In this document: positions 27,510-31,194 of the stretch, one piece after another
How positions within the stretch are numbered: position 1 is the first letter of the stretch
Layout of the letters: each line of letters starts with the position of its first letter
NCBI RefSeq assembly: GCF_001677475.2
Contig: NZ_CP015229.1
DNA: 64,000 nucleotides
Direction: 5' to 3' (one strand)
Source of the DNA: Escherichia coli
GTDB taxonomy: Bacteria > Pseudomonadota > Gammaproteobacteria > Enterobacterales > Enterobacteriaceae
Notes under the pieces: model-generated
Databases searched by the model: none
What the model was told of the DNA's origin: nothing
The model's input: the letters and a program-made list of their open reading frames with translations, nothing else
Made by a program: the position numbers and the translations under genes

Positions 27510-27577
27510 GTAGAGGTTTTACTGCTCATTTTCATCAGACAATCTGTGTGAGCACTGCAAAGCACAGTTCTTTAAGG

Positions 27578-29119
<1,542 letters not shown>

Positions 29120-29299
29120 AAAAGTTTGATGCTCAAAGAATTAAACTTCGTAATGAATTACGTGTTCACTCTTGAGACTTGGTATTCATTTTTCGTCTTG
29201 CGACGTTAAGAATCCGTATCTTCGAGTGCCCACACAGATTGTCTGATAAATTGTTAAAGAGCAGTTGCGACGTGGCTTTCAGCTCACTGTCGCGAGGTG

Positions 29300-29335
29300 G
29301 CGTATATTACGCTTTCCTCTTTCAGAGTCAACCCT
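29300..29335 (-). promoter_or_regulatory. rrnD P2 promoter
   Basis: Minus strand TTGACT -35 (29326..29331), 16-nt spacer, TAATAT -10 (29304..29309). Confidence 0.65.
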
Positions 29336-29404
29336 GAATTTCAGGATTTTTTCTCTTTGTTGTTACGACCATCTTGTGAAGTGTTTCACGTTGTCGTCTC
29401 AACG

Positions 29405-29445
29405 GAGGCGCATTATAGGGATCCCAATTTTTTGCACAAGTACTT
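29405..29445 (-). promoter_or_regulatory. rrnD P1 promoter with upstream A/T-rich UP-element region
   Basis: Minus strand TTGTGC..TATAAT..GCGCC discriminator; A/T tracts upstream at 29440..29520. Confidence 0.65.
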
Positions 29446-29590
29446 TTTTGATCTTTTTTTCTGTTTGTTGTTTTTTCACCCTTTTTGCTGCATTCGCACA
29501 CAAAATGGTGCTTTTTTGCATACTAAAAGACTTGCACAAGGCCAATAATGCACCCAAAGTCATTAGGAAATCATTTATTGTTGAGGTGAG

Positions 29591-30146
29591 TATGTCTGAT
29601 GTTTTACGCCCATACCGCGATCTTTTTCCACAAATCGGTCAGCGCGTAATGATCGACGATAGCAGCGTCGTGATTGGTGACGTTCGTCTGGCTGATGATG
29701 TGGGGATCTGGCCGCTCGTTGTGATTCGTGGAGATGTACATTATGTACAGATCGGAGCACGCACCAATATCCAGGATGGCAGTATGTTGCATGTCACTCA
29801 TAAATCCTCGTACAACCCAGATGGCAACCCATTAACCATTGGCGAAGATGTCACTGTTGGTCACAAGGTGATGCTCCACGGCTGCACCATTGGCAATCGA
29901 GTTTTGGTTGGGATGGGCTCAATTTTACTTGATGGCGCAATAGTAGAAGATGATGTGATGATTGGTGCGGGTAGCCTGGTCCCACAAAATAAACGGCTGG
30001 AGAGCGGATATCTGTATCTCGGTAGCCCCGTCAAACAGATCCGCCCGTTAAGTGATGAAGAGAAGGCTGGGTTACGCTATTCCGCAAATAACTACGTGAA
30101 ATGGAAGGACGAATATCTGGATCAAGGTAACCAGACCCAACCTTGA
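29591..30146 (+). CDS. yrdA: Hexapeptide-repeat (gamma-carbonic-anhydrase-like) protein YrdA
   Basis: 184 aa from MSDVLRPYRDLFPQIGQRVMIDD; the 293-aa ORF from 29265 is an upstream extension across the rrnD promoters. Confidence 0.85.
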
Positions 30147-30379
30147 TCATCTTCACTTTGTTCCTGAATTAAGTTTTCCGCTTCTTCTTCCAGGTCCCAG
30201 CGATGCTGACGGAAACTCGCTAACCACTGTTCTGGCGTATCTCCAGTAAAGCGATACGCCAGACTCTCGCCAGAGATCGCACATGTCAGTTTCATACCAT
30301 TCACGAGAGCGGGAAAACATACACATTTTTTATTCTCGTCCCACTCTTCCCTATCCGGAAACTGGATGGCCTGATTCAC
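30122..30379 (-). CDS. yrdB: Small protein YrdB
   Basis: 85 aa; 3' end overlaps yrdA 3' end by 25 bp. Confidence 0.75.
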
Positions 30380-31194
30380 GCTGACAATTCCTGTTGCAAT
30401 AGTTTGATGACCGGTTCTACATCAGGCAGAACGCCATGCCAAAGAAGGAAGGCATGAGCCGCCTGTGCCACCAGCATTCCTAAACCATCAGCATTATGCT
30501 TTGAGCCTCGCTGCTCACACCATGCCAGAAAAGGAGTTTTTCCTTTCTGATAGAACATGTCATAGCAATAAATGCCTGGATGAATGAGCGATGACGGGAT
30601 CGCCGGAATATCACCACTGATGCCACTGGATGTTGCATTAATAATGAGATCAAACTCATGACCTTCCAGTTCGTCCATACCCAACGCCTGAATACTGCCA
30701 GTGTGCGCAAACAATTTAGTCAACTCTTCCGCGCGAGATACCGTCCGATTAGTGATTGTCACCGCACAGTCCAGGGAAAGAAGTGGCAGTAGTACGCCGC
30801 GAGATGCTCCACCAGCGCCGATGAGCAGAATACGTAAACCAGGACGGATAAAAGACAGACGTTCCAGATCGCTTAACAAACCTATACCATCGGTATTGTC
30901 ACCCAGCAGGCGTCCATCTTCTAACCGCTTGAGGGTATTAACAGCACCAGCCAACGCTGCCCGTTCAGTAAGCTCATCCGCTCTGGCAAAAGCCTCTTCT
31001 TTAAAAGGTACCGTCACATTCGCACCTTTACCACCAGCACTAAAGAAAGCGTTCAGTGTGTTGATGAAATCATTGATGGGTGCCAACACGCGCCCATAGG
31101 GATGTTCAATATTCAGTTGCTGAGCAAATTGCTGATGAATGAATGGCGATTTGCTGTGGGCTATCGGATTACCAAAAACAGCATAGGTTTCCAT
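30376..31194 (-). CDS. aroE: Shikimate dehydrogenase
   Basis: 272 aa from [26 protein letters not shown] extends 9 codons upstream. Confidence 0.93.

What the first reader, a model, noticed from the sequence alone, without database searches (positions are those of the whole stretch)
30122..30146. Convergent 3'-end overlap of yrdA and yrdB
yrdA on the plus strand ends at 30146 and yrdB on the minus strand ends at 30122, so their last codons share 25 bp on opposite strands. Transcripts would be mutually antisense at their 3' ends, allowing transcriptional interference or RNase III-sensitive duplex formation.
Basis: seen in the sequence. Interest (0 to 1): 0.2.

Follow-up and report, generated by a model that had tools for sequence, protein, structure and literature searches.

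The report
Conserved yrdA/yrdB tail-to-tail gene overlap
Two real E. coli genes on opposite strands, yrdA and yrdB, share their last 25 bases; the overlap is real and is kept at exactly this length across enteric bacteria, but it is a known, ordinary kind of gene overlap and nothing shows that it regulates either gene.

Summary
yrdA (+, 29592..30146) and yrdB (-, 30122..30379) share 30122..30146, 25 bp, and RefSeq annotates the same overlap. Both genes are real: YrdA is the gamma-carbonic-anhydrase-like protein of PDB 3TIO, and YrdB is a full-length DUF1488 protein.

The overlap is exactly 25 bp in 77 of 81 loci held at that stage (one E. coli LF82 record plus 80 species-representative genomes), carried by 64 different sequences. 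The two frames share their third codon positions. Each TGA stop is the complement of T-CA in the partner gene. The partner codon there (yrdA 177, yrdB 78) changes amino acid 8-10 ways but always ends in T.

Constraint follows the yrdB codon phase, because YrdB's conserved C-terminal beta-strand lies in the overlap. The YrdA tail is a passenger. Shared wobble sites that the codons leave free vary at normal third-position rates. Outgroups from Ferrimonas and Vibrio to Edwardsiella keep the genes convergent, between an 11-nt gap and a 46-nt overlap.

The 9-bp inverted repeat around the overlap belongs to one E. coli lineage and follows from the coding. No intrinsic terminator follows either stop. 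Complementary mRNA 3' ends are therefore unavoidable, and the pair is already listed in a published E. coli "excludon" catalogue. Regulation by interference or RNase III is untested here. Interest is low.

The parts
29592..30146 (+). yrdA CDS, 184 aa, a gamma-carbonic-anhydrase-like left-handed beta-helix protein. Its conserved core ends at ...KDEYL176. Residues Q178-P184 and the TGA stop lie in the overlap.
   Evidence: PDB 3TIO E=2.5e-121.
30122..30379 (-). yrdB CDS, 85 aa, DUF1488. It is the last gene of the yrdD-tsaC-aroE-yrdB operon. Residues Q79-P85 (the conserved C-terminal beta-strand G-W-V-W-L) and the TGA stop lie in the overlap.
   Evidence: (Pfam profile 1-82 of 82). PMC2954204 and PMC4421995.
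30122..30146 (.). The 25-bp tail-to-tail CDS overlap, TCAAGGTAACCAGACCCAACCTTGA. The third codon positions of the two genes coincide. Each TGA stop is the complement of T-CA in the partner gene (GAT-CAA in both).
30120..30128 (.). Left arm (GATCAAGGT) of a perfect 9-bp inverted repeat. It contains GATC 30120-30123.
   Evidence: (I3). It is perfect only in this E. coli lineage and is not conserved across genera.
30140..30148 (.). Right arm (ACCTTGATC) of the 9-bp inverted repeat. It contains GATC 30145-30148.
30376..31194 (-). aroE CDS (shikimate dehydrogenase). Its TGA stop (30376-30378) overlaps the yrdB GTG start (30377-30379) as GTGA, which suggests translational coupling.
   Evidence: The same 4-nt junction is seen in Enterobacterales outgroups.
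29740..29745 (-). -10 hexamer CATAAT of the published internal antisense RNA promoter inside yrdA. It is context, not part of the overlap.
   Evidence: Sequence. Dornenburg et al. 2010, PMC2912661.

Best explanation
This is a genuine, old tail-to-tail overlap between two protein-coding genes, and it is held in place by protein-level selection. The two genes have sat convergently with almost no spacer since before Enterobacterales, Vibrionales and Alteromonadales diverged. In the lineage leading to Enterobacteriaceae, the yrdA stop codon moved downstream in frame. YrdA therefore now reads eight codons (Q178-P184 and the stop), plus the third base of codon 177, on the antisense strand of yrdB's last codons. 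The two frames share their third codon positions, which is the least costly arrangement. YrdB's C-terminal beta-strand (G80-W-x-W-L) is the constrained partner, and the YrdA tail (N-Q-T-Q-P) is simply its antisense translation. Both stop codons are kept by selection: the partner codon that supplies the third base of each stop changes amino acid freely but always ends in T. A mechanical consequence is that every full-length yrdA mRNA and yrdB mRNA are complementary over at least 25 nt. Because no intrinsic terminator follows either stop, the complementary stretch is probably much longer. I infer, without showing it, that termination happens inside the partner gene, by Rho acting on the untranslated C-rich antisense RNA and/or by polymerase collision. 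Nothing in the sequence indicates that the overlap itself was selected as a regulatory device.
For: - Both genes are real and the overlap is annotated.
- The overlap is exactly 25 bp in 77 of 81 loci covering more than 25 genera of Enterobacteriaceae, with 64 distinct sequences. The exceptions are 19 bp (two loci), 40 bp (one locus) and one apparent yrdA frameshift.
- In the overlap, positional entropy follows the yrdB phase. yrdA position 1 (which is yrdB position 2) has H=0.12, and yrdA position 2 (yrdB position 1) has H=0.47. Outside the overlap, yrdA has 0.40 and 0.38.
- Residue 82 of YrdB varies conservatively (V/I/L/F/Y). The opposite YrdA residue 182 varies as T/I/S/N/Y.
- G80 is invariant even in DUF1488 homologues at 35-45% identity. 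The C-terminal strand is described as highly conserved in the family (PMC2954204).
- yrdA codon 177 uses 9 different codons for 8 amino acids, and all end in T. yrdB codon 78 uses 11 codons for 10 amino acids, and all end in T.
- The shared wobble sites that the codons leave free have H=1.30-1.71, against means of 1.27-1.34 for ordinary third positions.
- Outgroup spacing is as follows: Buttiauxella 25, Rouxiella-like 25, Edwardsiella-like 28, Pantoea 46, Edaphovirga-like 13, Leminorella 4, Vibrio fortis 4, Limnobaculum-like -11, Plesiomonas-like -11, Ferrimonas -1.
- Every state from Vibrio to E. coli is congruent to 1 mod 3, so the relative phase is unchanged. This fits movement of stop codons without frameshift.
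- YrdA in the outgroups stops 2-5 residues after the conserved ...YL motif, against 8 residues in Enterobacteriaceae.
- Stop-codon movement is the accepted origin of convergent overlaps, and 75 such pairs exist in E. coli (PMC4161906).
- No intrinsic terminator follows either stop, and the downstream RNA is C-rich and G-poor.
Against: - The tight junction has been kept for a very long time, from an 11-nt gap to a 46-nt overlap between Ferrimonas and E. coli. That could itself reflect selection on convergent transcription rather than simple compaction.
- One shared wobble site (30125, the third base of YrdA Q178) is G in 72 of 76 Q codons, against a background CAG share of 72%. This excess is unexplained.
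- Outgroup sampling is thin, with one or two loci per family, so the direction of stop-codon movement is inferred and not reconstructed on a tree.
- I had no transcript 3'-end data, no Rho data and no expression data for this locus.
Confidence: 0.78

Rival explanations
1. The pair is a regulatory excludon. Convergent transcription across the shared 3' ends would cause transcriptional interference and/or an RNase III-cleaved mRNA duplex, so that yrdA and the yrdD-tsaC-aroE-yrdB operon repress each other.
For: - yrdA-yrdB is in the published E. coli excludon list, with RNA-seq overlap in at least 50% of 58 transcriptomes (PMC12288877).
- No terminator lies between or just after the genes.
- A junction with almost no spacer is conserved from Ferrimonas and Vibrio to E. 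coli.
Against: - For genes whose CDSs overlap, an RNA-seq call of overlap is automatic and says nothing about regulation.
- There is no sequence constraint beyond coding at the free wobble sites.
- The stored part of the Gordon 2017 RNase III site list has no site in the overlap.
- Mutating the internal antisense promoter in yrdA did not change yrdA::lacZ expression (PMC2912661).
- Ribosomes translate both strands of the 25 nt, which works against duplex formation (inference).
Confidence: 0.15
2. The inverted repeat GATCAAGGT/ACCTTGATC that brackets the overlap is a bidirectional terminator or pause hairpin of the type described by Ju et al. 2019 and Wang et al. It would position head-on RNA polymerase collisions so that both transcripts end at the gene boundary.
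For: - A perfect 9-bp inverted repeat with an 11-nt loop is centred on the overlap and holds both stop codons.
- The hairpin is the minimum-free-energy structure on the + strand RNA, at -12 kcal/mol.
- Bidirectional terminators between convergent pairs need a stem-loop but do not resemble intrinsic terminators (10.1101/2022.10.23.513370).
Against: - The fold z-scores are only -1.7 on the + strand and -0.6 on the - strand, and the hairpin is not the minimum-free-energy structure on the - strand.
- The perfect repeat exists in only about 13% of E. coli genomes. K-12 has two mismatches in the DNA.
- Across 77 loci the contiguous Watson-Crick stem is 3-7 bp in 75 of them. Every paired column is forced by the stop, Gln or Gly codons.
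- The free wobble pairs show no covariation. For the pair of overlap positions 4 and 22 (offsets rel3 and rel21 in the calls), 45 Watson-Crick pairs are observed and about 46 are expected under independence.
- A transcript that ended at the hairpin would lack part of its own coding sequence or its stop codon.
Confidence: 0.05
3. The overlap is an annotation artefact. Either yrdB is not a real gene, or one of the two stop codons is wrongly placed, so there is no true overlap.
For: YrdB is small (85 aa), starts with GTG and has no known function.
Against: - YrdB keeps a constant 85-aa length and 63-98% identity across Enterobacteriaceae.
- It matches Pfam DUF1488 end to end and has a solved homologue, 2gpi.
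- Entropy across codon positions 1/2/3 is 0.65/0.55/1.27, the pattern of a coding sequence.
- Its start is coupled to the aroE stop as GTGA.
- Stop codons are unambiguous in the sequence, so their positions cannot be misannotated.
Confidence: 0.02

Closest known systems
Convergent (tail-to-tail) overlapping gene pairs of prokaryotes, in the phase that shares third codon positions
   Same: The two real CDSs lie on opposite strands and their 3' ends overlap by a short stretch. The overlap length is congruent to 1 mod 3, so the wobble positions coincide. The overlap arose by stop-codon movement and is conserved among orthologues. Huvet & Stumpf count 75 such convergent pairs in E. coli (PMC4161906). 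The phase nomenclature is given in 10.1101/2025.11.07.687268.
   Different: At 25 bp it is longer than the commonest 4-nt stop-on-stop overlaps, which are the state seen here in Vibrio and Leminorella. It has been fixed at exactly this length across a whole family. Otherwise it is typical.
Excludons (overlapping transcription of neighbouring opposite-strand genes; Lasa/Cossart concept, ExcludonFinder catalogue)
   Same: The pair is a convergent neighbour pair whose transcripts overlap, and it is listed by name in the E. coli excludome (PMC12288877).
   Different: The defining functional outcome, mutually exclusive expression or RNase III processing, has not been shown for this pair. Here the overlap lies in the coding sequences themselves, not only in long 3' UTRs.
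Bidirectional terminators between convergent gene pairs (Ju et al. 2019; Wang et al. 2022/2023)
   Same: There is a convergent pair, no canonical intrinsic terminator, and a stem-loop at the junction in this strain.
   Different: The stem is not conserved, is fully accounted for by the coding, and lies inside both coding sequences. No 3'-end data were available to test it.
mscL-arfA convergent 3' overlap in E. coli (PMC10070815, seen in the list)
   Same: It is a convergent E. coli pair whose 3' ends are antisense to each other, and it is also in the excludon list.
   Different: Judging only from its title and abstract line in the search list (I did not read the paper), antisense crosstalk was studied experimentally there. 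For yrdA-yrdB no such experiment exists.

Membership tests
Convergent overlapping gene pair (shared-wobble phase) | Both overlapping ORFs are genuine protein-coding genes. | tested here: met
   YrdA matches PDB 3TIO and has hexapeptide repeats. YrdB is a full-length DUF1488 protein with a homologue in 2gpi, and shows a codon-phase entropy pattern.
Convergent overlapping gene pair (shared-wobble phase) | The genes lie on opposite strands, their 3' ends overlap, and their third codon positions coincide (overlap length congruent to 1 mod 3). | tested here: met
   The overlap is 30122..30146, 25 bp. The phase was worked out and agrees with the per-site table.
Convergent overlapping gene pair (shared-wobble phase) | The overlap is conserved in orthologous pairs. 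| tested here: met
   77 of 81 loci have exactly 25 bp. Other Enterobacterales families and Vibrio have 4-46 bp in the same phase.
Excludon | Transcripts of the two neighbouring opposite-strand genes overlap. | not testable with these tools
   This follows by logic for full-length mRNAs. It is reported from RNA-seq in PMC12288877. I held no transcript data.
Excludon | Expression of one unit lowers expression of the other (mutually exclusive expression). | not testable with these tools
   No data exist for this pair. The only related experiment, on the internal yrdA antisense promoter, was negative (PMC2912661).
Excludon | RNase III processes the sense/antisense duplex. | not testable with these tools
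   The part of the Gordon 2017 site list held as text has no entry in yrdA or yrdB other than the rrsD-yrdA intergenic site. The stored file was truncated.
Bidirectional terminator (Ju/Wang type) | It lies at the boundary of a convergent gene pair. | tested here: met
Bidirectional terminator (Ju/Wang type) | A stem-loop is encoded at the junction and acts as a pause element. | tested here: inconclusive
   A 9-bp perfect stem is present in this strain. It is degraded in K-12, is 3-7 bp in 75 of 77 loci, and shows no covariation.
Bidirectional terminator (Ju/Wang type) | The 3' ends of both transcripts map to the two sides of the stem, independently of Rho. | not testable with these tools
   This needs SEnd-seq or Term-seq with and without bicyclomycin.
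Intrinsic (Rho-independent) terminator | A GC-rich hairpin is followed directly by a U-tract. | tested here: not met
   The consensus scan finds none near either stop codon. A relaxed scan finds only weak hairpins of -7 to -8 kcal/mol, 81 nt and 128 nt downstream.
DUF1488 (Pfam PF07369), for YrdB | A full-length match above the gathering score, including the conserved C-terminal strand. | tested here: met
   114.3 bits against a cut-off of 22, covering profile positions 1-82 of 82. G80 is invariant in distant homologues.

The most novel reading that the evidence does not exclude
The almost spacer-free convergent junction was found in all eleven outgroup genera or lineages sampled, from Ferrimonas and Vibrio to the Enterobacterales, ranging from an 11-nt gap to a 46-nt overlap. 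In every locus where the flank could be read, a 16S rRNA gene starts about 450-540 bp beyond yrdA on the yrdB strand. The novel reading is that this junction is selected as a terminator-free device. Head-on transcription from yrdA, plus Rho acting on the antisense RNA, would stop read-through from tsaC-aroE-yrdB before it reaches the rRNA operon promoters. It would also couple yrdA output inversely to that operon.
Probability: 0.08. Interest if true: 0.5.

Novelty: already known. Interest (0 to 1): 0.15.

Why it matters
The finding matters little beyond being a clean textbook example. It shows how a short antisense overlap can stay fixed for a very long time with no function of its own. One protein's conserved C-terminal strand dictates the other protein's tail. 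Two 'synonymous' third positions are held invariant only because they supply the partner's stop codon. This is a useful caution for studies of synonymous-site selection and for excludon catalogues: pairs whose coding sequences overlap will always be scored as overlapping transcripts, whether or not they regulate each other. If the antisense overlap did prove regulatory, it would link a gamma-carbonic-anhydrase-like gene to the tsaC/aroE operon next to rrnD, but nothing at present points that way.

Tried and rejected
- **Intrinsic terminator.** The consensus scan and a relaxed hairpin-plus-U-tract scan found nothing convincing after either stop. A weak hairpin followed by UUUAUUUUGU lies 128 nt downstream of the yrdB stop. 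Its U-rich tract is the antisense of the conserved YrdA peptide P-Q-N-K-R, so I did not pursue it.
- **The 9-bp inverted repeat as a selected structure.** I rejected this. It is lineage-specific within E. coli, the stem is 3-7 bp in most genera, and there is no covariation.
- **The two GATC Dam sites at the arm ends.** They exist only when residue 177 of YrdA and residue 78 of YrdB are Asp (30 of 77 and 48 of 77 loci), so they are a by-product.
- **Known RNA families.** The Rfam search of 29200-30700 gave only a sub-threshold Ysr197-like hit in the rrnD leader region and nothing at the overlap.
- **The 11-bp perfect inverted repeat inside yrdB** (30231-41 / 30253-63). It is not conserved outside Escherichia, with 2-11 of 11 pairs kept.
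- **Supplementary tables of the ExcludonFinder paper.** I looked for overlap length, dsRNA and terminator calls for this pair, but no supplement is held as text.
- **A Term-seq literature search.** It failed on a term-syntax error and I did not repeat it.
- **Wider outgroup sampling** (Yersinia, Serratia, Proteus, Pectobacterium, Aeromonas, Shewanella).

Full report
**1. What is at the coordinates**

The window around the finding is the E. coli rrnD-yrdA-yrdB-aroE-tsaC region. The 1001 bases 29500-30500 match 5425 of 5426 complete E. coli genomes, with the best hits at 99.5% identity (LF82 and NRG 857C among them).

- yrdA runs on the + strand from ATG 29592 to TGA 30144-30146 (184 aa).
- yrdB runs on the - strand from GTG 30377-30379 to the TGA that is the complement of TCA 30122-30124 (85 aa).
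- RefSeq annotates the same overlap in LF82, K-12 ER2796 and two further strains.

**2. Both genes are real**

- YrdA has hexapeptide repeats and matches the solved E. coli YrdA structure 3TIO/3TIS at E=2.5e-121 (183 residues aligned). It also matches the Salmonella orthologue 3R3R.
- YrdB matches Pfam DUF1488 over the whole profile (positions 1-82 of 82, 114 bits against a cut-off of 22). It matches the Shewanella DUF1488 structure 2gpi at E=6e-10.
- YrdB is 85 aa in essentially every full-length Enterobacteriaceae orthologue recovered.
- The yrdB GTG start overlaps the aroE TGA stop as GTGA. The same 4-nt junction is found in other Enterobacterales. yrdB is listed as the last gene of the yrdD-tsaC-aroE-yrdB operon (PMC4421995).
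I did not see ribosome-profiling or proteomic data.

**3. Anatomy of the overlap**

- The + strand reads GAT CAA GGT AAC CAG ACC CAA CCT TGA, giving YrdA D177-Q-G-N-Q-T-Q-P184-stop.
- The - strand reads GAT CAA GGT TGG GTC TGG TTA CCT TGA, giving YrdB D78-Q-G-W-V-W-L-P85-stop.
- The frames are offset so that third codon positions face each other, and position 1 of one gene faces position 2 of the other. A recent preprint calls this phase 2 of convergent overlaps (10.1101/2025.11.07.687268).
- Each TGA is the complement of the last base of the partner's Asp codon plus the first two bases of its Gln codon.

**4. Comparative evidence**

A scan of one genome per species with a YrdB alignment returned 80 loci, all of Enterobacteriaceae type and covering more than 25 genera. 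I located both stop codons in each locus.

- The overlap is exactly 25 bp in 77 of the 81 loci analysed, counting the LF82 record held.
- It is 19 bp in two loci, where an earlier TAA stops yrdA, and 40 bp in one.
- One Kluyvera locus has an apparent frameshift in yrdA but an intact junction.
- There are 64 different 25-mers, so this is not simply undiverged sequence.

Per-site entropies show three things.

- First, the shared wobble sites that both codons leave free (offsets 6, 12, 18 and 21 from the first overlap base) have H=1.30-1.71 bits. Ordinary third positions in the non-overlapping parts average 1.34 (yrdA) and 1.27 (yrdB). There is therefore no sign of a constraint beyond the two reading frames.
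- Second, inside the overlap yrdA position 1 (H=0.12) is more conserved than yrdA position 2 (H=0.47). Outside it they are about equal, at 0.40 and 0.38. The pattern follows the yrdB phase, so YrdB is the constrained partner.
- Third, amino-acid variation agrees with this. YrdB residue 82 varies as V/I/L/F/Y, while the facing YrdA residue 182 varies as T/I/S/N/Y.

G80 of YrdB is invariant even in DUF1488 homologues at 35-45% identity. [quoted passage not shown]

The two stop codons leave a clear signature. yrdA codon 177 is D, S, A, G, N, T, F or R, written with nine codons that all end in T. yrdB codon 78 is D, A, S, T, Y, I, G, H, N or V, written with eleven codons that all end in T. Those T bases are needed only for the partner's TGA. 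This count is partly circular, because it was made on the loci that have the 25-bp state. However, that state accounts for 77-78 of the 81 loci.

**5. Origin**

Contig look-ups for more distant YrdB homologues gave the outgroup states below. Names marked '-like' come from other members of the same protein cluster.

| Organism | Overlap (bp; negative = gap) |
|---|---|
| Buttiauxella | 25 |
| Unnamed relative at 61% identity | 25 |
| Rouxiella-like | 25 |
| Edwardsiella-like | 28 |
| Unnamed relative (P0143) | 22 |
| Edaphovirga-like | 13 |
| Pantoea stewartii | 46 |
| Leminorella | 4 (CTAA) |
| Vibrio fortis | 4 (TTAA) |
| Limnobaculum-like | -11 |
| Plesiomonas-like | -11 |
| Ferrimonas balearica | -1 |

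The genes are convergent in every case and never more than 11 nt apart. Every state from Vibrio to E. coli (-11, 4, 13, 19, 22, 25, 28, 40, 46) is congruent to 1 mod 3. The relative reading phase has therefore been kept while the stop positions moved. Ferrimonas is the one exception.

The conserved YrdA core ends at ...KDEYL176. Outgroup proteins stop 2-5 residues later (YLNG*, YLAQDK*, YLAEQAQ*). Enterobacteriaceae YrdA continues for eight residues, into the antisense of YrdB's G-W-x-W-L. This fits the accepted route to convergent overlaps, in-frame stop-codon movement (PMC4161906). That paper counts 75 convergent overlapping pairs in E. coli, so this class is common.

**6. The hairpin**

The overlap is bracketed by a perfect 9-bp inverted repeat, GATCAAGGT (30120-30128) and ACCTTGATC (30140-30148), with an 11-nt loop.

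- On the + strand RNA it is the minimum-free-energy structure (-12 kcal/mol, z=-1.7). On the - strand it is not (z=-0.6).
- This matters because bidirectional terminators between convergent E. coli genes need a stem-loop (10.1101/2022.10.23.513370).
- The perfect repeat is a lineage feature. Only 713 of 5397 matching genomes are at least 99% identical to the 71-mer. K-12 reads GATCAGGGT...GCCTTGATC, with two mismatches in the DNA.
- Across 77 loci the contiguous Watson-Crick stem is 3-7 bp in 75 of them. The paired columns are exactly those forced by the stop, Gln and Gly/Asp codons.
- The free wobble pair shows no covariation, with 45 Watson-Crick pairs observed and about 46 expected under independence.
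- I conclude that the stem is a by-product of two proteins both reading T-CAR-G.. on the way in and ..C-YTG-A on the way out.
- The two GATC sites are likewise present only when both residues are Asp.

**7. Transcription**

No intrinsic terminator follows either stop. The RNA downstream of each stop is the antisense of a coding region and is C-rich and G-poor, with C/G up to 3.1 in the stretch 140-220 nt past the yrdB stop. Termination by Rho inside the partner gene is a reasonable inference, but I could not test it.

Any mRNA that encodes a full-length protein must contain the 25 nt, so complementarity of the 3' ends is unavoidable. The pair is already listed among 165 convergent excludons in MG1655 (PMC12288877). 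For a pair whose coding sequences overlap, that call is close to automatic.

Evidence bearing on function is thin and, as far as it goes, negative. Mutating the internal antisense promoter in yrdA (-10 CATAAT, the complement of 29740-29745) did not change yrdA::lacZ expression (PMC2912661). The stored part of a genome-wide RNase III site list contains only the rrsD-yrdA rRNA-processing site (PMC5371410).

**8. Verdict**

The regulatory half is unsupported. What the tools add is an evolutionary account:

- an ancient convergent pair with almost no spacer;
- a stop-codon shift fixed at 25 bp across the 77 of 80 species-representative Enterobacteriaceae-type genomes that carry it;
- the YrdB C-terminal strand as the constrained partner, with the YrdA tail as passenger;
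- two 'synonymous' positions held invariant by the partner's stop codon.

This is an ordinary member of a known class, so interest is low.

The least conventional reading still open concerns the neighbouring rRNA operon. A 16S gene starts about 450-540 bp beyond yrdA on the yrdB strand in Citrobacter, Kluyvera, Leminorella, Vibrio and Ferrimonas. The spacer-free junction might therefore be kept as a terminator-free barrier against read-through into that operon. I give this reading a probability of about 8%.

Noticed in passing
window 27577-29118 (16S, approximate, transferred from L001) and 29592-31194; loci L011, L060, L093, L094, L099: The gene order tsaC-(hemF)-aroE-yrdB (one strand), yrdA (opposite strand), then a 16S rRNA gene on the yrdB strand starting about 450-540 bp beyond the yrdA start, is conserved in Citrobacter, Kluyvera, Leminorella, Vibrio fortis and Ferrimonas balearica. 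Many draft contigs also end just beyond yrdA, as expected at an rRNA repeat.
   Followed up: partly
window 30231-30241 and 30253-30263: There is a perfect 11-bp inverted repeat (TCTGGCGTATC / GATACGCCAGA, 11-nt loop) inside yrdB, 85-117 nt downstream of the yrdA stop. Pairing is kept in Escherichia but decays to 2-11 of 11 pairs in other genera, so it is probably chance or lineage-specific.
   Followed up: yes
window 29241-29482, - strand: An Rfam match to Ysr197 (Yersinia sRNA 197) scores 85 bits against a gathering score of 167, at E=3e-20. It lies between the 16S gene and yrdA, in the rrnD promoter/leader region, so the family probably models a conserved rRNA-operon leader rather than an independent sRNA.
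   Followed up: no
window about 29327-29563, - strand (L001 2828-3064): RefSeq annotates a 78-aa 'hypothetical protein' (LF82_RS25845) in LF82 within the rrnD promoter/leader region, just upstream of yrdA. It is not annotated in the K-12 stretch I fetched and looks like a spurious call.
   Followed up: no
window 29740-29745, - strand: The sequence CATAAT (complement of ATTATG) matches the -10 hexamer of the published antisense RNA promoter inside yrdA. Mutating it had no effect on yrdA::lacZ (PMC2912661).
   Followed up: partly
window 30125: The shared wobble base of YrdA Q178 and the last YrdB codon is G in 72 of 76 Gln codons across genera. The background CAG share in the same genes is 72%. 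The window itself carries the minority A. This is a small unexplained excess, and the test was not corrected for phylogeny.
   Followed up: partly
L060 (Kluyvera genomosp. 3 YDC799, CP022114.1): yrdA appears frameshifted, with the best-matching frame reaching a stop about 160 nt before the junction, although the junction sequence and its TGA are intact. This is either an assembly error or a pseudogene.
   Followed up: no
L050 (CACSKA010000021.1): A contig labelled Chryseobacterium sp. 18061 carries a typical Enterobacteriaceae aroE-yrdB/yrdA locus with the 25-bp overlap. It is probably contamination or a mislabelled assembly.
   Followed up: no
protein P0018 (E. coli): One E. coli YrdB variant is identical to the consensus except for residues 51-68 or so (RVVSEFVSIAGGLGQRSR in place of [18 protein letters not shown]). 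This looks like a pair of compensating frameshifts within yrdB.
   Followed up: no
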